IMG/VR virus record: IMGVR_UViG_3300032303_002590
Length of the DNA: 64,000 nucleotides
Strand: one strand, 5' to 3'
Origin: a virus
Lineage: Duplodnaviria > Caudoviricetes
Below the pieces are notes generated by a model. It was given only the letters and a program-made list of their open reading frames with translations. It was not told where the DNA came from and did not search any database. Shown one piece after another: positions 2,873-59,169 of the stretch; positions within the stretch are counted from its first letter, which is position 1, and each line of letters starts with the position of its first letter. A program made the translations under genes and the position numbers.

Positions 2873-2932
2873 ATGGAAAATACATTTAATTTAAAAAAAT
2901 TCCTTGCTGAAGGGAAATTATTAAAAGAAGAA
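2873..2932 (+). repeat. 60-bp leader cassette, copy 1 (MENTFNLKKFLAEGKLLKEE)
   Basis: Near-identical DNA at 16856, 56210 and 59110. Confidence 0.95.
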
Positions 2933-3562
2933 CAAACCTCGAATTTAGAACAAATAAACCCTGATTTTACCTCAGATAAAATAGTTACTACTTCTAATTA
3001 CGCTAATGATAGGGGACAACTTAAATCTCAATTTGGTAAACAATCCTATGATTTTGGAGGAAGTGAAGATCCTATTCCAAATTCTATAATAGTAGATGAT
3101 GCTGAACCTGAAGGTGATAATGAATGGATTCAATTCGATTTAAATAAAGTTGGAAAATTTCCACCAAAAAAATATATCAATTCAACTTTTACTATAGATT
3201 ATATTGATAATCAAAATAATTTAATAAAAACTATCCTAAACTCATTAGAAAGTGGTGGTATATTAGTTGTTTCTGAAAATGTGAAATCTGTATCTGATTT
3301 TTACAATAAACTGAAAAATAATTTTGATATATTAGAAGTTTATGATTTTATGGGTGATTTAAACGAAGGTGTATATACTCCCGAAGAAAGACAAGAAATG
3401 GCTGATAATATAAGAAAAAAATATACCATAAATGGTGTATACTATGATCCTTATTATCCCCTCCCACCTGGACTTAAATATGATAATGAAATGGGGGGTG
3501 ATGGTGAAGACGAAGAAGTAGATGAAAATTCAGTAATATCCCTAATTTTAAAGAAAAAATAA
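2873..3562 (+). CDS. MENTFNLK-leader protein with SAM-dependent methyltransferase-like domain (start revised to ATG 2873)
   Basis: Leader repeat, then YDFGGSE / IIVDD / IQFDL / LNSLESGGILVVSE in class I methyltransferase order. Confidence 0.5.
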   Translation: MENTFNLKKFLAEGKLLKEEQTSNLEQINPDFTSDKIVTTSNYANDRGQLKSQFGKQSYDFGGSEDPIPNSIIVDDAEPEGDNEWIQFDLNKVGKFPPKKYINSTFTIDYIDNQNNLIKTILNSLESGGILVVSENVKSVSDFYNKLKNNFDILEVYDFMGDLNEGVYTPEERQEMADNIRKKYTINGVYYDPYYPLPPGLKYDNEMGGDGEDEEVDENSVISLILKKK

Positions 3563-3566
3563 AATT

Positions 3567-4010
3567 ATGTGGTTATACGAAAATAAAGAAATAAAAGAAT
3601 TAACAGATATGCCCGAATCTACATTCGGGTTTATTTATGAAGTAACTCATTTACCTACAGGAAGAAAATACTTAGGTAAAAAGCAATTAATATCTGTTCA
3701 AAGAAAAGCTTTAGGTAAAAAAGAATTAGCTTTAATTACTGATAAAAGAGCTTCTAAAAAGAAAACTGTTACTAAAGAAAGTGATTGGAAAACCTATTAC
3801 GGATCAAATCCAACAATTAAACAGATGTTAAAAGAAGGTAAACAAGACGAATTTACAAGAGAAATTATTATGTTTGTACCTAACAAAAAATTATTAACTT
3901 ACTATGAAGACAAATATCTTTATATTAATGAGGTAATAGAAAAAGGAGATACATATTTTAATGACAATATTTCAGGTCGTTTCTTTAAAAAAGACTTTAT
4001 AAAAAACTAG
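3567..4010 (+). CDS. GIY-YIG-family endonuclease-like protein
   Basis: FGFIYEVT...RKYLGKK, YYGS, FTREI, YFNDNI. Confidence 0.7.
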   Translation: MWLYENKEIKELTDMPESTFGFIYEVTHLPTGRKYLGKKQLISVQRKALGKKELALITDKRASKKKTVTKESDWKTYYGSNPTIKQMLKEGKQDEFTREIIMFVPNKKLLTYYEDKYLYINEVIEKGDTYFNDNISGRFFKKDFIKN

Positions 4011-4036
4011 GATACCACAAAATAATTTATTATATT
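4008..4036 (+). promoter_or_regulatory. Class-2 (early/middle-type) promoter TAGG-N19-TATATT
   Basis: Same motif with an exact 19-nt spacer at 9 intergenic sites. Confidence 0.65.
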
Positions 4037-4055
4037 ACCATAAAAACCTCTTATT

Positions 4056-4208
4056 ATGAAACGTTACAGCTTATATAATAAAAATTTAACCGAGGCTATT
4101 AATTCAATTAAATCGGCTAATTTAGAAGGAGCAATATTATTTTTTGCTTCTCAAAAAAGATTAGAAATTGATCAATTTCATAAGTTATTTGACGTAAGAG
4201 AATCATAA
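4056..4208 (+). CDS. Small hypothetical protein (50 aa, MKRYSLYNKN...), not in the ORF track
   Basis: ATG after a class-2 promoter; fills the gap before primase. Confidence 0.6.
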   Translation: MKRYSLYNKNLTEAINSIKSANLEGAILFFASQKRLEIDQFHKLFDVRES

Positions 4209-4224
4209 ATAGAAAAACAAGGTT

Positions 4225-5160
4225 ATGATAAACGGAATATTATTAGGTCTAGTACAATCTGTACTAGGAAAGGGTAATGCTACCTCAAAAGGTAATTATG
4301 CTTTTCACTGCCCTTTATGTAATCATAGAAAACCCAAATTAGAAATTAATTTAGTACCAACAACTAAGAATGAAAATCCTTGGCATTGTTGGGCTTGTGA
4401 TATTAAAGGAAAAACAATTGCTTCTTTATTTAAATCAGTAAAAGCAGATAGAGAAAAATATTCTGAATTAAATTCCATCTTAGGTACCACAACTAAAATA
4501 GACCAATCAGATTTTAACCTTAACGTAGAATTACCGAAGGAATATAAACCATTATATAATCTGTCAAAAACAGATATTATCGCTAAACACGCGTTATCTT
4601 ACGTTAAAAAACGTGGTATAACACCCACAGATATACTCAAATACCAAATAGGATATTGTGAGATAGGAAGGTATGCTAATAAAATTATTATACCCAATTA
4701 TGATGCTGAAGGTAAATTAAATTACTTTATAGCTCGTTCATTTGAAAAAGATCCGTCTAGAAAATACGATGCAGTATCTACTGATAAGAATTCAATAATT
4801 GGATTTGAAAATTTAATAAATTGGAACTTACCTGTTATACTTTGTGAAGGAGCATTTGATGCAATTGCTATTAAAAGAAATGCAATACCTTTATATGGTA
4901 AAACAATGTCAAAACAATTAACTAAAAAATTATTGTCTAATAATATAAAAGACATATATTTAGCCCTGGATAGTGATGCTTTAAAAAGTACACTTAAAAT
5001 TGCCGGAGATCTACTCCACTCAGGAAAACAATTACATGTTGTGAAATTAGAAGGTAAAGACCCATCAGATATGGGCTTCGAACATTTTACACATTTAGTA
5101 CAAAATTCTCAAGAATTTACCTTTTCTGATCTTTTCTCACTCAAATTAGAAGTAAACTAA
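4225..5160 (+). CDS. DNA primase (Zn finger + TOPRIM)
   Basis: CPLC...WHCWAC zinc finger; LCEGAFDA, LALDSDA, KDPSD. Confidence 0.9.
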   Translation: MINGILLGLVQSVLGKGNATSKGNYAFHCPLCNHRKPKLEINLVPTTKNENPWHCWACDIKGKTIASLFKSVKADREKYSELNSILGTTTKIDQSDFNLNVELPKEYKPLYNLSKTDIIAKHALSYVKKRGITPTDILKYQIGYCEIGRYANKIIIPNYDAEGKLNYFIARSFEKDPSRKYDAVSTDKNSIIGFENLINWNLPVILCEGAFDAIAIKRNAIPLYGKTMSKQLTKKLLSNNIKDIYLALDSDALKSTLKIAGDLLHSGKQLHVVKLEGKDPSDMGFEHFTHLVQNSQEFTFSDLFSLKLEVN

Positions 5161-15912: not shown

Positions 15913-16563
15913 ATGCGTCCTTACATTTACTTAGTTAAAAATCAATATAATATTATAGTTTATATTGGTCAACAAATAGGAACTAAATCCTTATTAGAAT
16001 ATAAAGGGTCTGGTTTATTATTAAATAGAGCCTATAAAAAATATGGAGAAGATAAATTTACAAGAGAAATAATTGAATATTGTGATATTGATGAATTAAA
16101 TAGTAATGAAAAATTCTATATAAAATATTATAATACTAAATTTCCTCATGGTTATAATTTAACTGACGGTGGAGATGGGAATAAAGGTTTAAAATTTACT
16201 AAAGAGCAAAAGCAAAAAATTAGTCAAAATAAAAAGGGACACGAATGTTATTCTAACCCTGAAAGGGGAGAAAAAATAAGACAATCTAAATTAGGCAAAA
16301 CCCACACACAAGAAACTAAAGATAAGATTATTAAAACCAAAGCCTCTAAACATAACATAACCCCAGACCTAAATTTAAAAGGGCAATATAAAAGTAACTC
16401 ACAAAAATCTATAAAACAATACAATTTAGAAAATCAGTTAATTAATGAATATCAATCAGCCCAAGAAGCAGGAAGATGTTTAGGGAAATCAGGAAATCAA
16501 ATAGCAGATTGCGCCTCAGGTAGACAAAAAACAGCTTACGGATTCACTTGGAAATACAAATAA
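15913..16563 (+). mobile_element. Free-standing GIY-YIG homing endonuclease (Seg-like; NUMOD3/NUMOD1-type DNA-binding modules)
   Basis: YIY...YIGQ, YKGSG, GYNLTDGGDG, GKTHTQETKDKI, YQSAQEA...TAYGFTWKY. Confidence 0.85.
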
Positions 16564-16855: not shown

Positions 16856-16915
16856 ATGGAAAACACATTTAATTTAAAATCATTCCTTGCTGAAGGGAAA
16901 TTACTAAAAGAAGAA
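16856..16915 (+). repeat. 60-bp leader cassette, copy 2
   Basis: Encodes MENTFNLKSFLAEGKLLKEE. Confidence 0.95.
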
Positions 16916-17194
16916 ATTCAAAACCTAGAACCTAAAATTCAAGCCTTTAAAAATTATGCAGAACCTAAAGTAGAAGACTTTAGAGACTTTTTACTATTTC
17001 TTGCTGAAGGTATGGGACATCACCAAGATTTTACTAAATATTCTGATATTGACTTAATCAAAATGGCTATTGAATTTGATGAGGAAGAATCAGGAAATGA
17101 CTGGTTAGAAGATAACTATGGAATTGATGTGTTAGATGGAGAGATAGCTTCATATAATGATGAAATAGAAACTTCTGGTAAAAGAGAAAGATAA
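16856..17194 (+). CDS. Acidic MENTFNLK-leader protein
   Basis: Leader cassette; D/E-rich body. Confidence 0.75.
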   Translation: MENTFNLKSFLAEGKLLKEEIQNLEPKIQAFKNYAEPKVEDFRDFLLFLAEGMGHHQDFTKYSDIDLIKMAIEFDEEESGNDWLEDNYGIDVLDGEIASYNDEIETSGKRER

Positions 17195-17207: not shown

Positions 17208-17253
17208 ACAAACTAATTTGGCTCCTTAAAGGAGCCTTATTACATTATATAAA
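17208..17253 (+). repeat. 46-bp hairpin/class-2 promoter element, copy A (TTGG 17218, TACATT 17241)
   Basis: 41/46 identical to 56545-56590; GGCTCCT-TAA-AGGAGCC stem. Confidence 0.85.
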
Positions 17254-17274
17254 TAAAACTAATAAAAACAAGTT

Positions 17275-17842: not shown

Positions 17843-18805
17843 ATGAACATTAACGATAATTTTGATTTACGTAAACATAGAGATGCTTTATTAGCTGAAT
17901 CAACAATTAATGAAAGATTTGCTGACAAAATATATGATGTAAATCCTTTAACAGGTGAAAAAGAAAGAGTAATCTACGAAAATGATTTTGAAGTATCTAG
18001 AATGGGTATCTTTGATGATATTGATGGAGATTTAGAATATGAAGATGATAGAATAGGATACTTAGACGCTATTATCAAATATTGTACTAAACAAATGGAA
18101 GATATAGGTAATGATAATGGTGGGTTAGATGATATTGATTCTTCGGATGAAGAAGTTCCTCTAGAAGAAATGGCTAAATTAACTGGTGCTGGAGGTGTTT
18201 TTACAACTTTAGGAAAAAGAGCAGCTGATATTATCCAAAATAACCCGGAATTAGAAAAATCAGCTCTATTAAAAGCTTTAAATTCAGATCCTGAAATTGC
18301 TCAAATTTTAGATGCTAGTGAAGAAGAATTACATCAAAACCAAACAAATAAATTTGCTGCTTTAGTTCGTGGTTCAAGAGAATTAGGACAAAGAGGTAGA
18401 AAAGCAGATCCAAATAAACCAGCTGCTGAACCAAAAGCAAAAGTAGAAAAACCAACTTCACAAAAATTAAAAATAACTAACCCAAAAGCTAACGAAAAAC
18501 CTGTTTCTACAGTATTTGGTGGTGAAGAAAATGATGCCGAAGATATTGCTGATGAAATGGCTGCAACAAGAGCTGCTAAGGGTAATAAAAGATTAGGTAC
18601 GGCTGCTGAAAAATTAGCTCAAGTAACTAAAGAAATGAAAGCTTTAGTTCCTGCTTATCAAGCTGCTAAAGGTACTCCTAAAGAAGCTGCTATTGTAGCT
18701 CAATTAAAAGCTTTAACTGCTGAGAAAAAATCATTAGAAGCTAAAGTATACAAAGAACCAAAAGCATTAAGTGCTGCTGATTTGATGGGTGGAGAAGAAA
18801 TATAA
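17843..18805 (+). CDS. Putative internal head protein (acidic N-half, Ala/Lys-rich C-half)
   Basis: NFDLRKHRDALLAES leader variant; PLEEMAK junction. Confidence 0.5.
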   Translation: MNINDNFDLRKHRDALLAESTINERFADKIYDVNPLTGEKERVIYENDFEVSRMGIFDDIDGDLEYEDDRIGYLDAIIKYCTKQMEDIGNDNGGLDDIDSSDEEVPLEEMAKLTGAGGVFTTLGKRAADIIQNNPELEKSALLKALNSDPEIAQILDASEEELHQNQTNKFAALVRGSRELGQRGRKADPNKPAAEPKAKVEKPTSQKLKITNPKANEKPVSTVFGGEENDAEDIADEMAATRAAKGNKRLGTAAEKLAQVTKEMKALVPAYQAAKGTPKEAAIVAQLKALTAEKKSLEAKVYKEPKALSAADLMGGEEI

Positions 18806-20525: not shown

Positions 20526-22454
20526 ATGGTAGATACTTCATTTTTTGGTAGATTACAACGATTATTTTCAACAGACGTAGTAATAAGAAACGTTGGGGGT
20601 AACCAATTAAAAGTAATGGATACTGATCGTATTCAACAGCTTGGTACTATCCAAACAAACTCACTTTTTGACAGATACAATAAGGTTTATACTACAACAG
20701 GTGGTTTAAACTTCAACTTTAATAGCGATTTAACATATCCAACTACTCGTATCCAGTTGTATACTGATTATGAAATGATGGATAGTGATTCTATTATTGC
20801 TTCTACATTAGATGTATTAGCTGATGAGACTTGTTTAAGAAATGATATGGGAGAAGTATTACAAATACGTTCTTCTGATGAAACTGTTCAAAAGATATTA
20901 TATAACTTATTTTACGATATATTAAATATTGAATTTAATCTTTGGTCATGGACTCGTAATATGTGTAAATATGGAGATTTTTATCTAAAATTAGAAATAT
21001 CAGAAAAATTTGGTATTTTTAATGTAATACCATTCTCTTCTTATTCTATTATTAGATTAGAAGGTAGAAACCCAGAAAAACCACAAGAAGTAAAATTTAG
21101 ATACGATCCTACCTTTACATCACAACAATCACCTAACGGACCTACAGTAATGTCTTCATATACTCGTAATAATAGTGAAGCTATTGTATTTGATAATTAT
21201 GAAATGGCTCACTTCAGATTATTATCTGATTTTAACTATTTACCTTATGGTAGATCATATATTGAACCTGCTCGTAAAGTATTTAAACAATTAATGTTAC
21301 TAGAAGATGCGATGCTTATACATCGTATTGTTAGAGCACCTGAAAAACGTACTTTCTTTATTAATGTTGGTAATATTCCACCAAACGAGGTAGAAAACTA
21401 TATGCAGAAAACCATCAATAAGATGAAAAAAACTCCATATATGGATCCTCAAACAGGTGAGTATAACTTAAAATTTAATATGCAAAACATATTAGAAGAT
21501 TTCTATATACCAGTTAGAGGAGGAGATACAACAACTAAAATTGAAACTACAAAAGGTTTAGATTATACTGCAATTGAGGATGTTGAATACTTAAAAAATA
21601 AATTATTTGCTGCCTTAAAAATACCAAAAGCATATTTAGGATATGAAAGTGATTTAACAGGTAAAGCAACTCTTGCAGCAGAAGATATTCGTTTTGCTCG
21701 TACAGTAGAAAGATTACAAAAAATACTAATCTCAGAATTAACAAAAATTGCTTTAGTTCACTTATATTCACAAGGATATGATGGAGAAGCATTAACTAAT
21801 TTTGAATTATCATTAACTGTTCCATCTATCATATACGAACAGGAAAAAATTGCTTTATTAAAAGAAAAATCTGCATTAGCTACTGAGTTAATACAAAATA
21901 AAATTGTTCCAACTGATTGGGTTTATGATCATATATTTAACTTTAGTGAAAACGAATACGATGAGTATAGAGATCTAATTATAGAAGATGCTAAACGTAA
22001 ATTTAGAATTGATCAAATTGAAACTGAAGGAAATGATCCATCTAAAACAGGTGAAGCATATGGTACACCACACTCATTAGCATCACTTTATGGTTCAGGT
22101 AGATATCCAGGTACTAATGGTGTGCCAAAAGGATATGATGAAGATGGTGATACTTACCCTGATCAAATTTTAGGTAGACCAAAAGAAAAAGCATCAAATA
22201 TTAATACACAAGAAAATCCATTTGGTAAAGATAGATTAGGTAGAGATGGTATGAAGAATGGAGATAATGAAGCTAAAGGATTTAGAACTGCATATAAAGG
22301 TGGGTCTCCATTAGCATTAGAAAATGCAAGTACACAAGCAGTGTATCATCAAATCTCAAGTAATTTAAAAAATATGTTCCCACAACGTAAAGTAAGTTTA
22401 TTTGAAGAAAGTGACTTATTAAATGAGAATAACCTTCTAAAAGAAGACAAATAA
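20526..22454 (+). CDS. Portal protein (T4 gp20-like)
   Basis: LLEDAMLIHRIVRAPEKR, LEDFYIPVRGG, LFAALKIPK, EDIRFAR; follows TerL. Confidence 0.93.
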   Translation: MVDTSFFGRLQRLFSTDVVIRNVGGNQLKVMDTDRIQQLGTIQTNSLFDRYNKVYTTTGGLNFNFNSDLTYPTTRIQLYTDYEMMDSDSIIASTLDVLADETCLRNDMGEVLQIRSSDETVQKILYNLFYDILNIEFNLWSWTRNMCKYGDFYLKLEISEKFGIFNVIPFSSYSIIRLEGRNPEKPQEVKFRYDPTFTSQQSPNGPTVMSSYTRNNSEAIVFDNYEMAHFRLLSDFNYLPYGRSYIEPARKVFKQLMLLEDAMLIHRIVRAPEKRTFFINVGNIPPNEVENYMQKTINKMKKTPYMDPQTGEYNLKFNMQNILEDFYIPVRGGDTTTKIETTKGLDYTAIEDVEYLKNKLFAALKIPKAYLGYESDLTGKATLAAEDIRFARTVERLQKILISELTKIALVHLYSQGYDGEALTNFELSLTVPSIIYEQEKIALLKEKSALATELIQNKIVPTDWVYDHIFNFSENEYDEYRDLIIEDAKRKFRIDQIETEGNDPSKTGEAYGTPHSLASLYGSGRYPGTNGVPKGYDEDGDTYPDQILGRPKEKASNINTQENPFGKDRLGRDGMKNGDNEAKGFRTAYKGGSPLALENASTQAVYHQISSNLKNMFPQRKVSLFEESDLLNENNLLKEDK

Positions 22455-24077: not shown

Positions 24078-24223
24078 TGGCAGCAAAAGTAAAAGCAGCT
24101 TCATCTACTACTAAAGTAGAAAAAGTTAAGGTAAAAAGACCTGGTGTTCACTCTAAAAGTAAAACATCAAAGTTAAAAAATTCTAAGAATTACAAAAAAC
24201 TATACAGAGGGCAAGGTAAATAA
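24077..24223 (+). CDS. Small very basic protein (48 aa) ending KKLYRGQGK, not in the ORF track
   Basis: TAATG coupling; the YRGQG ending resembles small T4-like phage proteins. Confidence 0.7.
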   Translation: MAAKVKAASSTTKVEKVKVKRPGVHSKSKTSKLKNSKNYKKLYRGQGK

Positions 24224-24226
24224 AAA

Positions 24227-25796: not shown

Positions 25797-26414
25797 ATGA
25801 GTAAATCACTATTAATAGAATACGCTTTATTTACACCTAAATCTGCAGTACTAACTGAAGGTAAAGGTGATAGAAACTTAATGGTTGAAGGTGTTATTCA
25901 AAGAGCAGATGCTAAAAATCAAAATGGTAGAGTTTACCCAAAAACTATCTTAGCACGTGAAGTTGAAAGATATATTGATGGACCAGTTGCTGAAAATAGA
26001 GCATTAGGTGAATTAGATCATCCTGAATCAATGGTTATTAACCTAAAAAATGTATCTCATAACATTAAACAATTATGGTGGAATGGAGATGATTTAATGG
26101 GTAAAGTAGAAGTATTACCAACACCTTCAGGTAACATCTTAAAAGAATTATTCTTAAATAACATTACAGTAGGTATCTCTTCTCGTGGTATGGGTTCAGT
26201 TCAATCATTAGGAGAAGGTACAGTTGAAGTACAAGATGATTTTGAATTATTATGTTGGGATTTTGTTTCTACCCCATCAACACAAGGTGCTTTTATGACT
26301 CCAACAGGATTAAGCGAAGGATACAAACCACAACAAACAAGTAAATACTCAAAAATTAATACTCTAGTATCAGACATTATCTGCTCTCAATCAGGTGTAT
26401 GCTGTATTAGATAA
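25797..26414 (+). CDS. Prohead protease (T4 gp21-like)
   Basis: NQNGRVYP, ALGELDHP, GISSRGMGS, WDFVSTPST. Confidence 0.93.
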   Translation: MSKSLLIEYALFTPKSAVLTEGKGDRNLMVEGVIQRADAKNQNGRVYPKTILAREVERYIDGPVAENRALGELDHPESMVINLKNVSHNIKQLWWNGDDLMGKVEVLPTPSGNILKELFLNNITVGISSRGMGSVQSLGEGTVEVQDDFELLCWDFVSTPSTQGAFMTPTGLSEGYKPQQTSKYSKINTLVSDIICSQSGVCCIR

Positions 26415-26602: not shown

Positions 26603-27619
26603 ATGGCAAACGAAAACACTAAAATCTTTAGTGAAGCAATCGCTGAAGCAAAGGCTATTAGAGAAACAGCTATGGTTAATGCAAAACTTGCTCTAGAAGA
26701 AGCTTTTACTCCTCGTATTCAAGAAATGATGAACAATAAGTTATCATCAATGGCTGAAGACGATGAATTGGAAGAAGATTCTCACACAAAAAATGGCGCA
26801 GCGCCAGAAGATCAAATGGATGAAATTTCATTGGAAGAACTTTTAGCTGAATTAGAAGGTCTTGAAGAAACTTCAGGATACGCTAATGACCCAGAAGACA
26901 AAGACACTTACATGAGTAATGATGGGTACGAAAAAGTATCATCTAAAAAAGGAGTAAACGATCCTTACATGGAAGAAAACGAAATTTTTGAAGAAGCTGA
27001 AGATGACGACACCGTAGCTGAAATTACAGTTGATGATTTAAAAGATATCATCAGAAATGTAGTAGCAGATCTAATGGGTGGTCCAGAAAGCGAAGAAAAT
27101 GACGAAGGTGAAGGCGAACCAGGTCACGAAGAAGGAGAAACTCCTGAAGAAGAAGCTGGTGAAGGTGAAAAAGAACTAAGTTTAGAAGAAATTTTAGCTG
27201 AACTTGAAGAAGATTCAGATATGGATGCTTCAGAAATGGCAGGTGAGCTTCAAAATGAAGAACTTGAAGAAGCTATGTCAACTATTGCTACTTTACGTTC
27301 TGAATTAAACGAAGTTAATCTTTTAAATTCTAAATTACTTTACGTTAACAAGTTGTTTAAATCTAAAAACTTAACAGAAGCTCAAAAAGTAAAAGTAATC
27401 AACGCTTTCGATAGAGCTGAAACAGTTAAAGAGTCTAAAAACATCTATGAAACGTTACAAGAATCATTAACAACAACATCTTCAACTTCTAACACTAAGT
27501 CTCAAATCAAAGAATCTCTTTCATTTGCTTCTAAAGCATCAGGAGTTGCTGACAGAAAACCAATCGTTGAAAACAACGATTTTGTAAAAAGAATGCAACA
27601 ACTTGCAGGAATTATTTAA
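26603..27619 (+). CDS. Prohead scaffold/core protein (T4 gp22-like)
   Basis: Highly acidic coiled coil with many L-x-E sites; between protease and major capsid protein. Confidence 0.85.
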   Translation: MANENTKIFSEAIAEAKAIRETAMVNAKLALEEAFTPRIQEMMNNKLSSMAEDDELEEDSHTKNGAAPEDQMDEISLEELLAELEGLEETSGYANDPEDKDTYMSNDGYEKVSSKKGVNDPYMEENEIFEEAEDDDTVAEITVDDLKDIIRNVVADLMGGPESEENDEGEGEPGHEEGETPEEEAGEGEKELSLEEILAELEEDSDMDASEMAGELQNEELEEAMSTIATLRSELNEVNLLNSKLLYVNKLFKSKNLTEAQKVKVINAFDRAETVKESKNIYETLQESLTTTSSTSNTKSQIKESLSFASKASGVADRKPIVENNDFVKRMQQLAGII

Positions 27620-27657: not shown

Positions 27658-29307
27658 ATGTCAAACATGATTAATTCATTATTAGAGACTGCTAACCCAT
27701 ACCAATCATTGCAGAAAGATACTGCTAGATTAGCTGGAAAATGGGCTAAATCAGGTCTTCTAGAAGGTATTTCTAATGAAACAGATAAGTCTAACATGGC
27801 TCTTATCTTAGAAAACCAAGCAAAACAATTAGTAGTAGAATCTTCTTCTACAGGAACAGGTGGTACTTTTACCGCTGGTACAGGTGAGCAATACGCTGCA
27901 GTAGCATTACCATTAGTACGTAAAGTATTTGGTCAAATCGCTGCTAAAGAATTTGTTTCTGTTCAACCAATGAGCTTACCAGCTGGATTAGTATTCTTCT
28001 TAGATTTCCAATATGGAACGAACAACCAACCATTTAGTGCTAACACTTCATTATATGGTTCTCAATCTGCTAACTTTGGTAACGAAGCTAAAGATGGTTT
28101 ATATGGTGCTGGTAGATTTGGATACTCAATCAATGAGTTTACAGGTGCTTTTACAGCAGGTACAGGTTCATTTGTAACTTCTTCTGCATTCTCTGATATT
28201 AACTACACTTCAGAATTATCAGCTTCATTCTTAGCAGGACAAATCCTTAAATTGACTGTAACTACTTCATCTTTATCTGGATTTGATACTAATGGTGTTA
28301 GATCATTTGTAGCAACTTCAGGATCAGCTTTAGCAGCTGCTAACTCTTTACCAGCGTTTACTAGACTTAATTCAAGTGCGGGTACAATTGATTTCTTCTT
28401 TACAGGGTCATCTGTAAGTTTACCAGTTACTACTACTACTAACGTAATTACTGTTTACTACAGTAAAGGTCCTAAAGATAACTCACGAGGTGATTTTGAA
28501 GATGCTTCAGGTGCTGGTTACCCTAACGCATTATCTCAAACTGCAATTTCTATCCCAGAGATTAACGTTCAAATGAGATCAGAAGCTATTGTTGCTAAAA
28601 CACGTAAGTTAAAAGCACAATGGACACCTGAGTTCTCTCAAGATTTAAATGCATTCCACTCACTTGATGCTGAAGCTGAATTAACTTCTATCTTATCAGA
28701 GTATATCTCATTAGAGATTGACTTAGAGATTTTAGATATGTTGATCCAAAACGTTCCAACAAACCAAGTTGAAGTATGGTCTGCAAGAGTAGGTAACTCA
28801 ATTACAGGTGGTACTGTTTCTAGTAACACATCAGGCGTTTACTACACTCAAATGTCTTGGTTCCAAACTTTAGGAATTAAATTGCAAAAAATCTCTAACA
28901 TCATCCACCAAAGAACCTTAAGAGGTGGTGCTAACTTCATTGTTATTTCTCCAACTGTAGCTACAATCTTGGAATCAATCCCAGGATTTGCTGCAGATAC
29001 AGATGGTGATTCAGCTAGAATGACTTATGCATTTGGTGTTCAGAAAATTGGTTCATTAAACTCTAGATATAAAGTTTACAAAAATCCTTATATGTTAGAG
29101 AATACTATCTTGTTAGGATTTAGAGGTAACCAATTCTTGGAATCAGGTGCAGTTTATGCTCCATACGTTCCGTTAATCATGACTCCATTAGTATACGATC
29201 CTAATACTTTCACACCAAGAAAAGGTATTATGACTCGTTACGCTAAGAAAATGGTACGTCCTGAATTCTATGGTAAAGTATTAGTTGCTGACTTAAACGT
29301 AGTTTAA
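27658..29307 (+). CDS. Major capsid protein (T4 gp23-like)
   Basis: VSVQPMSLPAGLVFFL, KTRKLKAQWTPE, YAPYVPL, FTPRKGIMTRY. Confidence 0.96.
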   Translation: MSNMINSLLETANPYQSLQKDTARLAGKWAKSGLLEGISNETDKSNMALILENQAKQLVVESSSTGTGGTFTAGTGEQYAAVALPLVRKVFGQIAAKEFVSVQPMSLPAGLVFFLDFQYGTNNQPFSANTSLYGSQSANFGNEAKDGLYGAGRFGYSINEFTGAFTAGTGSFVTSSAFSDINYTSELSASFLAGQILKLTVTTSSLSGFDTNGVRSFVATSGSALAAANSLPAFTRLNSSAGTIDFFFTGSSVSLPVTTTTNVITVYYSKGPKDNSRGDFEDASGAGYPNALSQTAISIPEINVQMRSEAIVAKTRKLKAQWTPEFSQDLNAFHSLDAEAELTSILSEYISLEIDLEILDMLIQNVPTNQVEVWSARVGNSITGGTVSSNTSGVYYTQMSWFQTLGIKLQKISNIIHQRTLRGGANFIVISPTVATILESIPGFAADTDGDSARMTYAFGVQKIGSLNSRYKVYKNPYMLENTILLGFRGNQFLESGAVYAPYVPLIMTPLVYDPNTFTPRKGIMTRYAKKMVRPEFYGKVLVADLNVV

Positions 29308-51056: not shown

Positions 51057-51085
51057 TAGGCTCCATCAGGAGCCTTTTTTATCTT
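51057..51085 (+). terminator. Terminator AGGCTCC-ATCA-GGAGCCT-T5, overlapping TAGG-N19-TATCTT
   Basis: Same GGCTCC/GGAGCC stem as 17220 and 56557. Confidence 0.75.
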
Positions 51086-51088
51086 ACA

Positions 51089-51096
51089 TATTTATA
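51089..51096 (+). promoter_or_regulatory. Late-promoter-like TATTTATA
   Basis: Recurrent motif. Confidence 0.6.
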
Positions 51097-51110
51097 TTAA
51101 AATATAAACT

Positions 51111-55289: not shown

Positions 55290-55388
55290 ATGGCTGAAGG
55301 TCTTATTGTTGGAATTATTATATTTGGATGTATCCTTATAATAATTGAGTATAAGGATTCAACTAATTCAAATAAAAATAAACTATGA
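55290..55388 (+). CDS. Small single-transmembrane peptide (32 aa, MAEGLIVGIIIFGCILIII...), not in the ORF track
   Basis: A-rich leader, late motif upstream, ATGA overlap with the next gene. Confidence 0.55.
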   Translation: MAEGLIVGIIIFGCILIIIEYKDSTNSNKNKL

Positions 55389-56206
55389 GCATCAAATTAA
55401 AAACAATACTCGATCAAATCCTAAAAGAAAGTACTGAAGAAAAAACATACACAGTTGATTACTGGTACCGATATGGAAATGATGATAAAGAAATGGACGA
55501 TATTGAAGTAAAAGCAACTTCTGAAGAAGAAGCAATTAAAAAAGCTAAAGAAAAAGCAAAAAGAGGTGCTATCCAATCTTCATTTAAAGCTAAAGAAAAA
55601 TCTATAAAAGAAGATTTTAAACGTTTTGACTTTCAAAACACTACAGGCGGGGGAGGTAGAAGATTTATCCCAAACCAAGGAATAATCCCTTCATCTATGT
55701 TTAATGATAAAGACTTTATGTTAAGCAATGATGGTACTAAACTTTACATGGATCCACTTTTAGTTAATGCTATTGTAAACAGCAAAACTTTAACTAATAG
55801 AGCAGCCCAAGTTAGATATCAAGAATTTAAAGAAAAAATGGGCCCTCATTTCCAACAATTTAAAAAAGGATTAGAAGGTAGATTATCTAAAGTTTTAAAA
55901 AGTGGAAAACCATTTGATGTATGGAATGGAACCATAATGACTAATAAAAAAGGACAAATTGTTTTCCCTTATAGTGATATAGGAACTATAGCAGAAAGTG
56001 AAGATAATCTTAGACCACAATTACATACCCTTGTTGGTAATGAAATGAGATTAGGAAAAAGAGCAGATATGACTGGTTATTCTCATCACGAAGAAGAACA
56101 TAAAAAAGCAGAAAGAGAACTTAATACTTTCCTTAAAAATAATCCTTCTATGATGAATGATTTAGATACAGTTACAGATCATTTCATGAAACAATTATAT
56201 AAATAA
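55385..56206 (+). CDS. Putative internal head (poly)protein with MSIKLKTILDQILKE leader
   Basis: Leader motif; internal SIKED and TIAES. Confidence 0.55.
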   Translation: MSIKLKTILDQILKESTEEKTYTVDYWYRYGNDDKEMDDIEVKATSEEEAIKKAKEKAKRGAIQSSFKAKEKSIKEDFKRFDFQNTTGGGGRRFIPNQGIIPSSMFNDKDFMLSNDGTKLYMDPLLVNAIVNSKTLTNRAAQVRYQEFKEKMGPHFQQFKKGLEGRLSKVLKSGKPFDVWNGTIMTNKKGQIVFPYSDIGTIAESEDNLRPQLHTLVGNEMRLGKRADMTGYSHHEEEHKKAERELNTFLKNNPSMMNDLDTVTDHFMKQLYK

Positions 56207-56209: not shown

Positions 56210-56269
56210 ATGGAAAACACATTTAATTTTAAAAAATATCTTGCTGAAGGAAAATTACTAAAGGAAGAA
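56210..56269 (+). repeat. 60-bp leader cassette, copy 3
   Basis: Encodes MENTFNFKKYLAEGKLLKEE. Confidence 0.93.
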
Positions 56270-56533
56270 ATAACCTCAGACGTAGAAGACTATTTAATTA
56301 ACTTATATGATTTATCTTCAAGTGAAGAACATGAAGAAGGACAAGAAGTTAGTAGTATACTTTCTAGAGAAGAATATGGTGATCCTGAAGCATATGAAGA
56401 TGCTGAAATGTTTGATAAAGCCTACAATGAAATAGAACAACAAGGTGGCTCTATTACAATTGAAGGTCAACCTGATATTACATTCTCTATTCAAGGAGAC
56501 GATATAAAAATGGATTTCGTAGCAGAATACTAA
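56210..56533 (+). CDS. Very acidic MENTFN-leader protein
   Basis: Leader cassette; D/E-rich body. Confidence 0.75.
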   Translation: MENTFNFKKYLAEGKLLKEEITSDVEDYLINLYDLSSSEEHEEGQEVSSILSREEYGDPEAYEDAEMFDKAYNEIEQQGGSITIEGQPDITFSIQGDDIKMDFVAEY

Positions 56534-56544: not shown

Positions 56545-56590
56545 ACAAACTAATTAGGCTCCCGTAGGGAGCCTTATTACATTATATAAA
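56545..56590 (+). repeat. 46-bp hairpin/class-2 promoter element, copy B (TAGG 56555, TACATT 56578)
   Basis: 41/46 identical to 17208-17253. Confidence 0.85.
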
Positions 56591-56607
56591 AATAAAGGTT
56601 ATAACAA

Positions 56608-57945
56608 ATGTTTTACATAGTAGAAACACAAGATCAATTATCACAACTTCACATATCGGAAGAATGCTATATTAATGTTATTCCACTATCATCAAATTAC
56701 CACCCTATATTAACGGAAGTATCCTTAATTTACTATAAACCAAAGTATGGTAAAGGATTAATACTAACTATAAATCATAGTGAAGGATTTTATTTAAGTT
56801 TAGAAAAAGTAAAAGAATTTATTTTAAATCATAAAAATATTTATGTTTTAGATAAAAAAACAACAGCTCATTTAATGGGAGAGGAATTTTTAGCAAGTAA
56901 AGTACAAGATATAAATTTGCTTTCAATGCACACCTCCACTTCCACTCCGTATATACAAGATTGCGATACAAATATACACACCCATTTCGAACGACTTTAT
57001 AAAGATAAATCTTATTTAAACTCGATTATCCCAATTTGTAAACATTATGAAAAACAAGAAAAAATATATGAAATAGTACAACAATGGGTAGGAAAACAAC
57101 ATGAAATAGCGTATTATAACGAGCAATATATTGAGGTGTTCTATGGTATTGAAAAACAAGGTATCACGTTGGATATGCCTGTTTTTAATAAGAATTTTTT
57201 ATTAGAAAATCCAAAATTTAATATAAGAGATAATAAGATTTATACTCAATTTAATTTAAATAACTTTACCTCAAGACCCACTAACTCGTTTAATGGGATT
57301 AACTTTGCAGCATTAAATAAAAATAACGGACAAAGAGCATCTATTATTGCTCAAAATGATGTTTTGTTTGAATTTGATTACGATTCGTACCACCCACGTA
57401 TTTTAGCAAAATTGGTTGGATACGAATTTAATGAGGCCTCTGTTCACACCCATTTGGGACAAATGTATTTTAAAACAGAAGTATTAACTCCCGAACAATA
57501 TCAAGCTTCTAAAGAATTAACATTCAAGCAACTATATGGAGGAGTATTTGAGCAATACAAAGACATACCGTTTTTTGCTAAAGTAAAACAATATACAGAT
57601 AAGATATTTAAAGATTTTAATTCCCTGGGATATATAGAGTTAGTTGGTGGGAGGAAATTATTTGCAGGGGATATTGAAAACGTTACACCACAAAAACTAT
57701 TAAATTATATAATACAATCAGGAGAAACTTTTTATAATGTAAACTCGATAAAGAAAGTATTGGAGTACTTGAATACTAGAAAAAGCCATATTATATTATA
57801 CACTTATGATTCAATACTATTGGATTATAGTAGAGAAGATGGGAAGGAGGTATTAAAAGAAATTAAAAGGTTATTAGAAAATGAATTTGGATTTAAAGTA
57901 AATGCAAGTTTTGGAACAAATTACAATAATTTAAATAAATTATAA
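56608..57945 (+). CDS. Short divergent family-A DNA polymerase
   Basis: TSRPTN, FDYDSYHPRIL (motif A), SKELTFKQLYGG (B), NYIIQS, LYTYDSIL (C). Confidence 0.8.
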   Translation: MFYIVETQDQLSQLHISEECYINVIPLSSNYHPILTEVSLIYYKPKYGKGLILTINHSEGFYLSLEKVKEFILNHKNIYVLDKKTTAHLMGEEFLASKVQDINLLSMHTSTSTPYIQDCDTNIHTHFERLYKDKSYLNSIIPICKHYEKQEKIYEIVQQWVGKQHEIAYYNEQYIEVFYGIEKQGITLDMPVFNKNFLLENPKFNIRDNKIYTQFNLNNFTSRPTNSFNGINFAALNKNNGQRASIIAQNDVLFEFDYDSYHPRILAKLVGYEFNEASVHTHLGQMYFKTEVLTPEQYQASKELTFKQLYGGVFEQYKDIPFFAKVKQYTDKIFKDFNSLGYIELVGGRKLFAGDIENVTPQKLLNYIIQSGETFYNVNSIKKVLEYLNTRKSHIILYTYDSILLDYSREDGKEVLKEIKRLLENEFGFKVNASFGTNYNNLNKL

Positions 57946-57965
57946 ATTCTTTTGCACCCTTTACA

Positions 57966-57973
57966 TATTTATT
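57966..57973 (+). promoter_or_regulatory. Late-promoter-like TATTTATT
   Basis: Upstream of the HNH gene. Confidence 0.55.
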
Positions 57974-57988
57974 GTAAATAATATAGAT

Positions 57989-58675
57989 ATGAAAATTTGT
58001 AAAAAGTGTAATATAGAACAAGATATAATTTTATTTGCTAAAAATAAAACAAAATCTGATGGTTTACATATATGGTGTAAAAAATGCACTAGTGAAAATA
58101 ATAAAAATAGATATTTACTTAAAAGTGAATATATTAAAAATCAAACCAATTCTTATTACAACTCAAATAAAGAAAACATTTTACCTAAGTTAAAAAAATA
58201 TAGAGAACAAGATTTTATTAAAGAAAAACAAAAAAATTATATTAAACAATGGGTATTAGATAACAAAGATTCATATAGAAAATATCAAAATTCTTATACT
58301 AAACAAAGAAGAAAAAATGATCTCTCCTTTAAAACTATAGAAAGTTTAAAAATACAGATTAATCATTTTTTAAAAAAAGAAACAAAAAACAAAAAAACTG
58401 AAGATTTATTAGGATACACTTATAAGGAATTTATAGAAAAATTAGGAGTAATAGAAGAAAACCAAGATTTAGATCACAAAATTCCAATTAGTTGGTTTAT
58501 ACCAGAAACTCCTATAAACATAATATGGGATTTAAGAAACCTGCAAATCACCTCAAGAAAATACAACAGAAAAAAGAAAAACACCTATGCCGATTCAGTT
58601 AATAAAGAATATCATCAAACAGTTATAAAATGGATAAAACATACACAGTTATCAATGATTTCAACATATTTATAG
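57989..58675 (+). mobile_element. Free-standing HNH homing endonuclease with N-terminal Zn finger
   Basis: CKKC...WCKKC; LDHKIPIS...NLQ...N..K. Confidence 0.8.
58667..58674 (+). promoter_or_regulatory. Late-promoter-like TATTTATA
   Basis: Inside the HNH 3' end, upstream of ATG 58708. Confidence 0.5.
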
Positions 58676-58707
58676 ATAATGAGAATCTTTCATTAGACTA
58701 TGATAAT

Positions 58708-59097
58708 ATGAATAACAAATTATTTTGTACGTTTTCAAGTAAGAACGACTTGGAAAGTACTTTATCCAATATACAATCAAAATATAAAATATTATTTAAT
58801 AAGATATTTGTTTTATATGTTGAATCAACCGAAGAATACGTTTGTACTTACAATATAGACCACAACAACATGAGTGGTGGATTATTAGAAAATACAATTT
58901 TATTACATAGAAAGAAAGAATCAAATACACTTTATACAATTAACGCTCTAAATGATTTAATAAAATCATTAAATGGCGGTCAATTAGATACTTCATTTAT
59001 GGTTAATTGGAAAGATTATCAAAACAGTATATTATTGACCCATGCAGGTGAATTAAAGAAATTAGATACTAAAATTTACAAAATAATTACACTATAA
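58708..59097 (+). CDS. Hypothetical protein (MNNKLFCTF...; start likely 58708)
   Basis: LLHRKKESNTLYTINALN; the revised start removes the overlap with HNH. Confidence 0.65.
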   Translation: MNNKLFCTFSSKNDLESTLSNIQSKYKILFNKIFVLYVESTEEYVCTYNIDHNNMSGGLLENTILLHRKKESNTLYTINALNDLIKSLNGGQLDTSFMVNWKDYQNSILLTHAGELKKLDTKIYKIITL

Positions 59098-59109
59098 TTT
59101 AATAAAAAA

Positions 59110-59169
59110 ATGGAAAATACATTTAATTTAAAAAAATTCCTTGCTGAAGGGAAAATGTTAAAAGAAGAA
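59110..59169 (+). repeat. 60-bp leader cassette, copy 4
   Basis: Encodes MENTFNLKKFLAEGKMLKEE. Confidence 0.95.

What the first reader, a model, noticed from the sequence alone, without database searches (positions are those of the whole stretch)
2873..59169. Near-identical 60-bp DNA cassette fused to four unrelated acidic cargo genes
Seen: the sequence atggaaaa(t/c)acatttaatt...cttgctgaagg(g/a)aaa...aa(a/g)gaagaa recurs at 2873, 16856, 56210 and 59110, each behind an A-run. Copies 1 and 4 differ by only about 2 nt. Similarity stops abruptly after the KEE codons, and the bodies are unrelated and strongly acidic. Three of the four genes are immediately followed by a class-2 promoter, so they sit at late-to-early operon junctions. 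Inference: synonymous-level identity implies recent copying or gene conversion of the leader onto new cargo, giving a shufflable cassette. Small acidic injected proteins are candidates for DNA-mimic or anti-defence factors (compare T4 IPI* and T7 Ocr).
Basis: partly seen in the sequence, partly recalled or inferred. Interest (0 to 1): 0.82.

Follow-up and report, generated by a model that had tools for sequence, protein, structure and literature searches.

The report
Capsid-loading leader on phage cargo proteins
A T4-like phage of marine Flavobacteria puts the same 20-residue N-terminal tag, which holds two cutting sites for its head-maturation protease, on several unrelated small acidic proteins; the tag most likely loads them into the capsid for delivery with the DNA, as T4 does with its internal proteins, and it marks hundreds of unstudied candidate injected proteins.

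Summary
Four genes (2873, 16856, 56210, 59110, + strand) start with MENTFNLKKFLAEGKLLKEE. Similarity ends right after KEE, and the bodies are unrelated and acidic (pI 4.05-4.28; window median 5.98). A fifth, diverged copy starts at 17843.

The window belongs to a distant T4-like Flavobacterium myovirus with a gp20 portal and a gp21-type (Peptidase_S77) prohead protease. The leader holds two L-x-E motifs (LAE|G, LKE|E), which is the gp21 cutting rule. T4 ipII and ipIII likewise share a 30-nt-identical leader, MKTYQEFIAE.

My best reading (about 0.7) is a T4-type capsid-targeting propeptide. No packaging or cleavage has been measured.

- **Spread:** a leader profile finds 692 protein clusters, nearly all matching at residue 1, in viral contigs only.
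- **Polyproteins:** 41% of the top hits reuse the core LAEGKLLKE as an internal linker between shuffled acidic modules.
- **Turnover:** cargo differs at orthologous loci in close relatives.
- **Copying:** recent DNA copying is supported only for copies 1 and 4.
- **Promoters:** the promoter claim is only partly verifiable.

I class it as a new variant of a known kind. This scan has noted analogous leaders with other sequences in other T4-like phages.

The parts
2873..3562 (+). Leader gene c1 (229 aa). The leader is 2873-2932. The body is acidic with a class I methyltransferase-like fold and a conserved C-terminal SLILKKK.
16856..17194 (+). Leader gene c2 (112 aa). The leader is 16856-16915. 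A second FLAEG at 16996-17010 matches the leader DNA at 14 of 15 nt and looks like the remnant of an internal linker.
17843..18805 (+). Fifth, diverged leader gene (320 aa), starting MNINDNFDLRKHRDALLAE|S. It lies directly upstream of the large terminase gene.
   Evidence: the terminase is identified
56210..56533 (+). Leader gene c3 (107 aa). The leader is 56210-56269. The body is a compact alpha/beta fold with no known structural match. It ends in FVAE-Y, at the point where some orthologs continue through an ITEGKLNE linker into another module.
59110..59367 (+). Leader gene c4 (85 aa). The leader is 59110-59169.
59074..59096 (+). Left copy of the 23-nt direct repeat (ATTTACAAAATAATTACACTATA) that brackets the c4 cassette.
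59355..59377 (+). Right copy of the same repeat (22 of 23 nt identical). Relatives have 0, 1 or 2 cassettes between such repeats.
17220..17256 (+). Hairpin GGCTCCTTAAAGGAGCC plus the TTATTACATTATATAAA motif after c2. It resembles a PeSL terminator/promoter cassette.
56557..56593 (+). Hairpin GGCTCCCGTAGGGAGCC plus the TTATTACATTATATAAA motif after c3. The same cassette type is conserved in relatives L001, L003 and L016.
20526..22454 (+). T4 gp20-type portal protein.
   Evidence: PF07230, 1.8e-68
25797..26414 (+). gp21-type prohead core serine protease (Peptidase_S77), the presumed processing enzyme. Its own N-terminus carries LIE and LTE|GK.
   Evidence: (PF03420, 5.7e-31)
26603..27619 (+). 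Acidic scaffold-like (gp22-like) protein with pI 4.12. Its N-terminus reads ...FSEAIAE|AK, and it has many L-x-E sites, including LLAE|LE and ILAE|LE.
27658..29307 (+). gp23-type major capsid protein. Its propeptide aligns with the T4 gp23 propeptide, with a candidate cut at LVVE|SSS.

Best explanation
The 20-residue leader is a capsid-targeting propeptide of the T4 internal-protein type.

Inferred mechanism, by analogy with the T4 CTS:
1. The N-terminal half, M-x-N-(T)-F-[ND]-L-K-K-[FY], docks the newly made protein onto the scaffolding core of the assembling prohead.
2. The C-terminal half, L-A-E|G-K-L-L-K-E|x, offers two L-x-E sites to the phage's gp21-type prohead protease. The protease removes the tag during head maturation.
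3. The freed small acidic body stays in the head and enters the cell with the DNA.

In relatives, the 9-residue core is also used as a joint between modules of polyproteins, which the same protease would cut apart.

The 60-nt leader and short repeats at the 3' end of the cassettes give the phage recombination system patches of homology. Cargo is therefore inserted, lost, swapped and fused at these points.

Shown here:
- the shared leader;
- the L-x-E motifs and their conservation;
- the presence of a gp21-type protease, portal, scaffold-like protein and gp23-type capsid protein;
- cargo turnover at orthologous loci;
- internal linker copies;
- restriction of the leader to viral sequence.

Inferred: docking, cleavage, packaging, injection, and any anti-defence role of the cargo.
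For: 1. Phage type. The nearest cultured relative is Flavobacterium phage immuto, at 68% nt identity over terminase and portal. The window encodes a gp20 portal (PF07230, 1.8e-68) and a Peptidase_S77 prohead protease (PF03420, 5.7e-31). It also has a gp23-type capsid protein whose propeptide aligns with that of T4.

2. T4 rule. IPs carry 10-19-residue N-terminal propeptides (CTS). In the IPIII CTS, targeting maps to residues 4 and 7 and processing to residues 8 and 10. gp21 cuts after L/I-X-E (PMC9026906; PMC3012670). The leader here is 13 residues to LAE| or 19 residues to LKE|.

3. T4 precedent at the DNA level. T4 ipII and ipIII share an identical 30-nt leader, MKTYQEFIAE, ending in F-I-A-E. 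The leader here has F-L-A-E.

4. Conservation pattern. Across 147 representatives, the Leu at P3 and Glu at P1 of site 1 are conserved in 146 and 147. Those of site 2 are conserved in 133 and 136. In diverged leaders, P2 and P1' change but L-x-E stays: immuto FLTE|N, FLVE|N, LLKE|G and ILKE|N; L008 LLE|S; window c5 LLAE|S.

5. Polyproteins. 61 of 149 representatives carry 1-3 internal copies of the core LAEGKLLKE between modules. Most of these lack the N-terminal half. Modules recur in different orders. One such ORF is continuous in its contig DNA.

6. Accessibility. In both AlphaFold models the leader is largely low-confidence (pLDDT under 50 at residues 1-4 and 13-21 in c1, and at 1-4 and 14-18 in c3), while the bodies fold well.

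7. Other head proteins. The protease, scaffold-like protein and capsid protein carry similar sites: LTE|GK, AIAE|AK, LVVE|S.

8. Distribution. The profile finds 692 clusters at E <= 1e-3, with the match at residue 1 in about 141 of 147. 94 + 8 IMG/VR contigs carry the pattern, and none of 185,579 prokaryote genomes does. Peptidase_S77 is present in 4 of 5 large leader-bearing contigs, and also in immuto and the window.

9. Genome-specific variants. Leaders within a genome are more alike than leaders between genomes (0.73 vs 0.61 identity, permutation p about 5e-4). This is expected if the tag must fit that phage's own core.

10. Cargo turnover. At orthologous loci, flanking genes are 75-95% identical while relatives carry 0, 1 or 2 leader genes with different bodies.
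Against: - No experiment exists. There is no virion proteome, N-terminal sequence or cleavage assay for this phage or for immuto, and no paper was found.
- The cargo is strongly acidic, whereas T4 internal proteins and their T-even relatives are described as basic (PMC9026906). Acidic proteins in a DNA-filled head are less obviously accommodated, and could instead be expelled like the scaffold.
- G at P1' and K at P2' are conserved far more than the loose T4 cutting rule needs. The core therefore has some further constraint.
- The leader genes lie among replication and nucleotide-metabolism genes, not in the head module, and their time of expression is unknown.
- Similarity to the T4 CTS itself is limited to F-[IL]-A-E.
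Confidence: 0.7

Rival explanations
1. The leader targets proteins to the prohead core and is cleaved, but the acidic bodies are accessory scaffold or filler proteins. They would be degraded or expelled before DNA packaging and would not be injected effectors.
For: The bodies (pI about 4.1-4.3) resemble the acidic scaffold-like protein (pI 4.12) more than the basic T4 internal proteins (PMC9026906). T4 IPIII affects the rate of head assembly.
Against: There are at least 85 module families among 149 representatives, with presence/absence and cargo swaps between close relatives. This looks like arms-race turnover, not like a structural part. The bodies are folded domains (pLDDT about 88-95), one with an enzyme-like fold. 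c3 has only one further L-x-E, near its C-terminus, so it would not be shredded the way the scaffold is.
Confidence: 0.12
2. The leader is a shared protein-protein interaction peptide unrelated to the capsid. It could be a docking motif for a host or phage machine (polymerase, clamp, chaperone, protease adaptor) or a degradation tag. Multiple copies in polyproteins would then give multivalent binding.
For: G-K after the first Glu and the whole LAEGKLLKE core are conserved beyond what a loose L-x-E rule needs. The leader genes sit next to replication genes such as the DNA polymerase, gp32-like SSB and primase.
Against: This does not explain why Leu P3 and Glu P1 are exactly the residues kept when the leader diverges. 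It does not explain why the N-terminal half occurs almost only at residue 1 while the core recurs at module borders. It also leaves unexplained the co-occurrence with a gp21-type protease and the close T4 precedent.
Confidence: 0.1
3. The conserved element works at the nucleic-acid level. It would be a translation-initiation or mRNA element, or purely a recombination site like the PeSL cassettes, and the peptide would be incidental.
For: Copies 1 and 4 have no synonymous difference (p about 5e-4). Rare codons (TTC CTT ... GGG) are shared. T4-type phages are known to shuffle genes at short conserved cassettes (PMC2839356, PMC4122927).
Against: c3 differs from c1 and c4 at as many synonymous sites as codon usage predicts, yet keeps the peptide. 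Relatives use other codons for the same residues. Internal in-frame copies of the core far from any start codon cannot be initiation signals. 692 clusters conserve the peptide.
Confidence: 0.04
4. The tag is a recognition sequence for a peptide-modifying enzyme. A radical-SAM/SPASM maturase was proposed earlier in this scan for a shared tag in phage RB43.
For: 4 of 5 large leader-bearing records have a Radical_SAM match.
Against: In immuto that gene is QueE. It lies inside the queD-queE-folE-dpdA 7-deazaguanine cluster, 70-90 kb from three of the four leader genes and about 29 kb from the fourth. The matches are 259-276 aa ORFs. G010 has 8 leader matches and no Radical_SAM match. No such gene lies beside any leader gene examined.
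Confidence: 0.02

Closest known systems
Phage T4 capsid-targeting sequence (CTS) on internal proteins IPI, IPII and IPIII, removed by the gp21 prohead protease (Mullaney and Black 1996, as cited in PMC9026906 and PMC3012670)
   Same: - A short N-terminal propeptide is shared by otherwise unrelated, dispensable proteins.
- It ends in hydrophobic-Ala-Glu (T4 F-I-A-E, here F-L-A-E), which fits the L/I-X-E rule.
- The leader can be identical at the nucleotide level between paralogs (T4 ipII/ipIII 30 of 30 nt; here c1/c4 58 of 60 nt).
- The phage encodes a gp21-family protease, a gp20 portal and a gp23-type capsid protein.
- The cargo varies between relatives.
   Different: - There is no real sequence homology to MKTYQEFIAE beyond those four residues.
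- The leader is longer (20 aa) and has two cut sites.
- The cargo is strongly acidic, not basic.
- The genes are dispersed (or in tandem arrays of six in relative G010), not arranged as in T4.
- The core is reused as an internal linker of polyproteins, which T4 internal proteins do not show.
- The host is a flavobacterium.
- Nothing has been measured.
Processed head and ejection proteins of giant phages phiKZ, 201phi2-1 and SPN3US (gp175/gp245 proteases, S/A-X-E motif; PMC9026906, PMC5694885)
   Same: Many head-internal proteins are cut C-terminal to Glu at a short motif by a gp21 relative. Propeptides can hold several redundant cut sites.
   Different: Those phages have no single shared leader across unrelated cargo and no fixed 9-residue linker. 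The motif and the phage lineage are different.
Phage P1 Dar anti-restriction system, with the N-terminal 30-residue packaging signal of DarB (PMC9024508)
   Same: An N-terminal signal is sufficient to bring a protein into the capsid. The packaged proteins protect incoming DNA from restriction.
   Different: The P1 signal is not a family-wide cassette and is not known to be a protease site shared by many proteins. The phage type is unrelated.
PeSL (promoter-early stem-loop) cassettes that mediate modular shuffling in T4-type phages (PMC2839356, PMC4122927)
   Same: A short conserved hairpin plus an AT-rich promoter-like element lies between variable genes (after c2 and c3, and at 51059). Indels between relatives fall at repeated short sequences (the 23-nt repeat around c4).
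   Different: The sequences differ, and the host promoter type is Bacteroidota, not sigma-70. Here part of the shared homology is coding (the leader itself). Promoter and terminator activity are untested.

Membership tests
T4-type CTS-bearing internal (head-packaged) proteins | A short N-terminal propeptide (10-19 aa in T4) shared by proteins whose mature parts are unrelated | tested here: met
   A 20-aa leader sits on 4 (+1 diverged) ORFs. hhalign aligns columns 1-28 only, and blastp between bodies gives E > 1.
T4-type CTS-bearing internal (head-packaged) proteins | The propeptide ends in the prohead-protease motif L/I-X-E | tested here: met
   LAE|G and LKE|E are present. Leu P3 and Glu P1 are conserved in 146 and 147 of 147 at site 1, and in 133 and 136 of 147 at site 2. 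They are kept in diverged leaders. This is sequence evidence only.
T4-type CTS-bearing internal (head-packaged) proteins | The same phage encodes a gp21-family prohead protease and a T4-type head module | tested here: met
   PF03420 5.7e-31, PF07230 1.8e-68, and a gp23 homolog. S77 is present in 4 of 5 large leader-bearing contigs.
T4-type CTS-bearing internal (head-packaged) proteins | Sequence homology of the leader to the T4 CTS MKTYQEFIAE | tested here: inconclusive
   Only F-[IL]-A-E is shared. This is too short to call homology.
T4-type CTS-bearing internal (head-packaged) proteins | The protein is found in proheads and virions, and the leader is removed by the protease | not testable with these tools
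   This needs virion proteomics or a cleavage assay. No published data were found.
T4-type CTS-bearing internal (head-packaged) proteins | A dispensable, variable repertoire between related phages | tested here: met
   Orthologous loci A and B carry 0, 1 or 2 leader genes with different bodies, while flanking genes are 75-95% identical.
PeSL regulatory cassettes of T4-type phages | A stem-loop terminator followed by an early promoter, between variable ORFs | tested here: inconclusive
   GGCTCC-loop-GGAGCC hairpins with a following AT-rich conserved motif lie at 17220, 51059 and 56557. The sigma-70 scan is uninformative for this host. Activity was not tested.
PeSL regulatory cassettes of T4-type phages | Indels between relatives are bounded by the repeated cassette | tested here: inconclusive
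   A 23-nt direct repeat brackets c4. L008 has three copies bracketing two cassettes, and L001 has none. This repeat is not the hairpin cassette.
Radical-SAM/SPASM-linked N-terminal tags on phage proteins | A maturase gene is encoded near the tagged genes | tested here: not met
   The only Radical_SAM gene in immuto is QueE, in the 7-deazaguanine cluster and tens of kb from the leader genes. G010 has 8 leader matches and no Radical_SAM match.
Class I SAM-dependent methyltransferase (c1 body only) | A Rossmann-like methyltransferase fold | tested here: met
   The AlphaFold model has pLDDT 80. 145 Foldseek PDB matches reach E <= 1e-3, and all but a few of those listed are SAM methyltransferases or methyltransferase-fold enzymes. 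TM is only 0.3-0.44. phrog_4752 scores 8.7e-6.
Class I SAM-dependent methyltransferase (c1 body only) | An intact glycine-rich SAM-binding loop and catalytic activity | not tested
   The loop reads YDFGGSEDP (invariant in 9 orthologs), which departs from the usual GxGxG. No Pfam methyltransferase family reaches its cut-off.

The most novel reading that the evidence does not exclude
LAEGKLLKE-type leaders and linkers define a large, combinatorially shuffled library of head-packaged, protease-released acidic effectors in T4-like phages of marine Bacteroidota. The library has hundreds of families and almost none carries a known domain. Single-module genes and 'beads-on-a-string' polyproteins would interconvert by recombination at the linker. 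Many modules would be injected counter-defence proteins, for instance against nucleases that attack the 7-deazaguanine-modified DNA of these phages, in parallel with T4 IPI* against GmrSD.
Probability: 0.35. Interest if true: 0.75.

Novelty: new variant of a known kind. Interest (0 to 1): 0.55.

Why it matters
If the reading holds, a 20-residue sequence tag identifies the injected-protein repertoire of a large group of uncultured marine Flavobacteriia phages. That repertoire comprises 692 protein clusters at 50% identity. Only 4 of the 149 examined have any Pfam hit.

Proteins that arrive with the DNA act before any phage gene is expressed, so they are prime candidates for counter-defence factors. 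The tag would therefore be a practical search handle for new anti-defence proteins in a host phylum where few are known.

The reuse of the tag's core as a linker in polyproteins would extend the T4 CTS idea. It would go from 'one tag, one protein' to a modular system in which the protease cuts strung-together modules apart.

A cultured member of the group exists (Flavobacterium phage immuto), so the idea can be tested directly. The tag could also serve for protein delivery into Bacteroidota, as the T4 and P1 signals do for enterobacteria.

Tried and rejected
- **Family searches on the bodies.** Pfam and PHROGs on the four bodies gave nothing above the cut-offs, apart from a weak methyltransferase-like hit for c1.
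- **Family searches on the 149 leader-bearing representatives.** Only 4 proteins had any Pfam hit. The PHROG tail-fibre and baseplate hits each came from single members, and I did not trace which members.
- **c3 fold searches.** Foldseek PDB gave a best E of 0.025 (Roadblock-like). VIA-align wide gave a best Z of 4.8. No fold was assigned.
- **c4 body in the ESM Atlas.** There was no informative neighbour.
- **tblastn of c4 against the phage records.** It returned only chance hits.
- **Kinase idea for the 237-aa cargo of L007.** A GSGKNGKVF...VIKITK motif is visible, but there is no Pfam or PHROG support.
- **c5 versus immuto gene 194.** These lie at the same position upstream of the terminase, but they are not detectably homologous.
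- **Sigma-70 promoter scan.** It found fewer sites than shuffled sequence, so it is uninformative for a Bacteroidota host.
- **Whole genome of the window.** None is held. The window's own 160-kb contig could not be fetched, so the copy number outside the window is unknown.
- **Secretion-signal reading.** Rejected on sight, because the leader is charged and hydrophilic.
- **Radical-SAM tag reading.** Tested and rejected.

Full report
**1. Observation**

The 19-nt start of the cassette occurs exactly four times in the window, all on the + strand, at 2873, 16856, 56210 and 59110. Shuffled sequence gave a mean of 0.39 matches, and 0 of 100 shuffles reached four.

Each copy forms the first 20 codons of an ORF. 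The ORFs are 229, 112, 107 and 85 aa long. The peptide is MENTFN[LF]K[KS][FY]LAEGK[LM]LKEE, and each ATG follows an A-rich run.

Copies 1 and 4 differ at 2 of 60 nt.

Alignment of the DNA and of the proteins shows that similarity stops right after KEE. A profile-profile comparison of the c1 and c3 families aligns only columns 1-28. blastp between the bodies gives E > 1.

The bodies have pI 4.05-4.28. The median for + strand ORFs of the window is 5.98, and only 9% fall below 4.5.

A relaxed N-terminal search adds a fifth, diverged member at 17843-18805. It starts MNINDNFDLRKHRDALLAE|S, is 320 aa long, and lies just upstream of the terminase gene.

**2. What the genome is**

All long ORFs are on one strand and G+C is 31%.

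The terminase-portal stretch is 68% identical at the DNA level to Flavobacterium phage vB_FspM_immuto, a 160-kb myovirus.

The window encodes these T4-type head genes:
- a gp20 portal (PF07230, 1.8e-68);
- a gp21-type prohead core serine protease (PF03420 Peptidase_S77, 5.7e-31);
- a very acidic scaffold-like protein (pI 4.12);
- a gp23-type capsid protein whose N-terminal propeptide aligns with that of T4, with LVVE|SSS where T4 has FLTE|AEIGG.

The exact c1 protein is on record on a 160,191-bp contig.

**3. The known precedent**

T4 internal proteins carry 10-19-residue N-terminal propeptides, the capsid targeting sequences (CTS). These bind the proteins to the prohead core. In the IPIII CTS, targeting maps to residues 4 and 7 and processing to residues 8 and 10.

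gp21 cuts after L/I-X-E. The CTS is thought to let T4-like phages load varied proteins (PMC9026906). T-even internal proteins are described as a diverse set of defence proteins with only the CTS conserved (PMC3012670).

I checked T4 itself. ipII and ipIII begin with the same 30 nt, which encode MKTYQEFIAE, and their bodies are different.

The leader here has the same logic. It is identical or nearly identical at the DNA level between paralogs. It has F-L-A-E where T4 has F-I-A-E. It has a second site, L-K-E. The propeptide would be 13 or 19 residues long.

**4. Evidence that the L-x-E sites matter**

A 36-column profile of the leader was searched against 1.84 billion representative proteins. 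It found 692 clusters at E <= 1e-3. The match lies at residue 1 in about 141 of 147 of the best hits.

The consensus is M-[DEN]-N-F-[DN]-L-K-K-[YF]-L-A-E-G-[KR]-L-L-K-E. The Leu at P3 and Glu at P1 of site 1 are conserved in 146 and 147 of 147. Those of site 2 are conserved in 133 and 136.

In diverged leaders, P2 and P1' change but L-x-E is kept:
- immuto: FLTE|N, FLVE|N, LLKE|G, ILKE|N;
- L008: LLE|S;
- window c5: LLAE|S.

The protease itself starts ...SLLIE|Y...VLTE|GK, and the scaffold-like protein starts ...AIAE|AK.

In the two AlphaFold models the leader is largely low-confidence. pLDDT is under 50 at residues 1-4 and 13-21 in c1, and at 1-4 and 14-18 in c3. Only a six-residue helix at 7-12 is predicted. 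The bodies fold with pLDDT of about 88-95.

**5. Polyproteins**

61 of the 149 best representatives carry one to three internal copies of the 9-residue core LAEGKLLKE. Most of these lack the N-terminal half NF[DN]LKK[YF]. The copies lie between recognisable modules, and the modules recur in other orders and as single genes. Examples are P0027, P0053 and P0012.

One such ORF (P0027, 384 aa) is continuous in its contig DNA.

There are 210 modules in about 85 families. Their median length is 95 aa and their median pI is 4.26.

The window shows traces of the same process:
- c2 has a second FLAEG whose DNA matches the leader at 14 of 15 nt;
- c3 ends in FVAE-Y, exactly where some orthologs run on through ITEGKLNE into a further module.

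A motif that marks both the N-terminus and the module borders is what a processing site would look like. This is the strongest argument for cleavage, and it goes beyond the T4 model.

**6. Turnover and mobility**

Locus A lies between the orthologs of 55385-56206 and 56608-57945. Locus B lies between the orthologs of 58630-59097 and 59452-60297. At both loci, relatives with 75-95% identical flanking genes carry zero, one or two leader genes with different bodies.

The c4 cassette is bracketed by a 23-nt direct repeat (59074-59096 and 59355-59377, 22 of 23 nt identical). L008 has three copies of the repeat around two cassettes, and L001 has no cassette.

c2 and c3 are followed by a GGCTCC-loop-GGAGCC hairpin and a conserved TTATTACATTATATAAA. 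A third such cassette is at 51059. These resemble the PeSL terminator/promoter cassettes that mediate shuffling in T4-type phages (PMC2839356, PMC4122927). Their activity is untested.

Copy number and arrangement vary between genomes:
- relative G010 has a tandem array of six leader genes;
- the complete 166-kb genome G008 has three leader genes;
- immuto has four.

Leaders within a genome are more alike than leaders between genomes (0.73 vs 0.61 identity, permutation p about 5e-4). This fits either co-adaptation to that phage's own core or conversion between copies. Shared descent of close genomes is a caveat.

**7. Gene conversion claim**

I compared each pair with the codon usage of 23 long genes of the window.
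- c1 and c4 have 0 synonymous codon differences where 6.0 are expected (p about 4.5e-4).
- The pairs involving c2 have 2 where about 5.5-6.2 are expected (p 0.02-0.04).
- c3 against c1 or c4 has 4 where about 5.5 are expected (not significant).

Recent copying or conversion is therefore supported for c1/c4 only. Overall, the leader is an old peptide held by selection on the protein.

**8. Distribution**

The leader pattern occurs in 8 + 94 IMG/VR viral contigs. It occurs in none of 185,579 bacterial and archaeal species genomes. Peptidase_S77 is present in 4 of 5 large leader-bearing contigs; the fifth is 77% complete.

**9. Cargo**

- **c1 family.** It keeps the leader in all orthologs, and has a conserved core and a C-terminal SLILKKK. 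Its model matches class I SAM methyltransferases (Foldseek E about 1e-5, TM 0.3-0.44). The glycine loop is atypical.
- **c3.** It has 45 ortholog clusters and a compact alpha/beta fold without a convincing structural match.
- **c4.** Nothing informative was found.
- **The wider set.** Only 4 of the 149 representatives have any Pfam hit.

DNA mimicry and anti-defence activity are therefore open. They are reasonable by analogy with T4 IPI* and P1 Dar, and relatives of this phage modify their DNA with 7-deazaguanines. There is no direct evidence.

**10. Rivals**

- **Accessory scaffold role, degraded rather than injected.** This is the most serious rival, because the cargo is acidic like the scaffold.
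- **An unrelated docking peptide.** This is possible, but it does not explain the L-x-E conservation pattern or the border positions.
- **A nucleic-acid element.** This is contradicted by internal in-frame copies and by synonymous divergence.
- **A radical-SAM recognition tag.** I tested it. The only Radical_SAM gene in immuto is QueE, in the deazaguanine cluster and tens of kb from the leader genes. G010 has 8 leader matches and no Radical_SAM match.

**11. Novelty**

The principle (CTS plus gp21) is textbook T4 biology. What appears undescribed is:
- this particular leader;
- its spread through hundreds of protein families of Flavobacteriia phages;
- the acidic cargo;
- the reuse of the core as a polyprotein joint.

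No paper in the library links capsid targeting with flavobacterial phages.

Earlier reports of this scan describe analogous leaders and protease-jointed polyproteins, with other sequences, in other uncultured T4-like phages. The kind therefore recurs, and this is a further, well-populated variant.

All functional steps remain inferences from sequence.

Noticed in passing
window 3567-4010 and 15913-16563: Homing-endonuclease genes lie next to two of the leader genes. A SegE-type GIY-YIG gene starts 4 nt after the c1 stop codon (Pfam PF19835 on the identical contig). A homing endonuclease (phrog_314, 8e-32) lies about 290 nt upstream of c2. They may help these cassettes spread.
   Followed up: partly
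window 24077-24223: A 48-aa, extremely basic ORF (pI 10.8, 16 Lys/Arg) lies in the head module between the portal and the protease. It could be a DNA-condensing internal protein that fills the role of the basic T4 internal proteins.
   Followed up: no
window 22496-25794: Three ORFs of 286, 244 and 518 aa lie between the portal and the protease, where T4 has the core proteins gp67 and gp68. None has a family match. Their N-termini carry L-x-E sites (KHLAE|L; QNLYTQYLDGK...KFLYE|V), and they may be further core or cargo proteins with other leaders.
   Followed up: partly
window 25797-26414: The N-terminus of the prohead protease has LIE at residues 6-8, as T4 gp21 has LIE-9. It also has VLTE|GK at residues 18-23, which resembles the leader's LAE|GK. 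This suggests self-processing.
   Followed up: no
L016:1491-1520 (IMGVR_UViG_3300008448_000520): The leader gene at the locus orthologous to c3 has one extra A in a poly-A run right after ATGGAA, which puts the leader out of frame. This could be a sequencing error, a pseudogene or slippage.
   Followed up: no
L007:1526-2239 (= P0022): A 237-aa leader-bearing protein at the locus orthologous to c4 has a kinase-like glycine loop and Lys motif (GSGKNGKVF...VIKITK). It has no Pfam or PHROG hit, and could be an injected kinase.
   Followed up: partly
P0049 (318 aa, metagenomic): This leader-bearing protein has a DHH phosphoesterase-like body (phrog_4771, 1.1e-8). An enzyme of this kind could degrade cyclic or linear oligonucleotide signals.
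   Followed up: no
window 51059-51110: A third GGCTCC-loop-GGAGCC hairpin, with a T-run and a TTACATATTTATATTAAAATATAAAC stretch, lies before the gene at 51111. It is the same cassette type as after c2 and c3, but it is not next to a leader gene.
   Followed up: partly
window 2837-2855: A perfect 8-bp hairpin with a 3-nt loop (GTATTGCA-TAT-TGCAATAC) overlaps the stop codon of the upstream ORF, 18 nt before the c1 start codon.
   Followed up: no
window 17843-18805: The C-terminal half of the diverged leader protein is Lys/Ala-rich. It gives a weak, sub-threshold match to T7 protein 6.7 (PF17570, E 0.007). From my own knowledge, that T7 protein is a small virion protein.
   Followed up: no
L008:10983-11260: There is a second cassette at the c4-type locus. 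It has a strongly diverged leader, MENFNLKKSKTFLLE|SEQ, which still keeps an L-x-E.
   Followed up: partly
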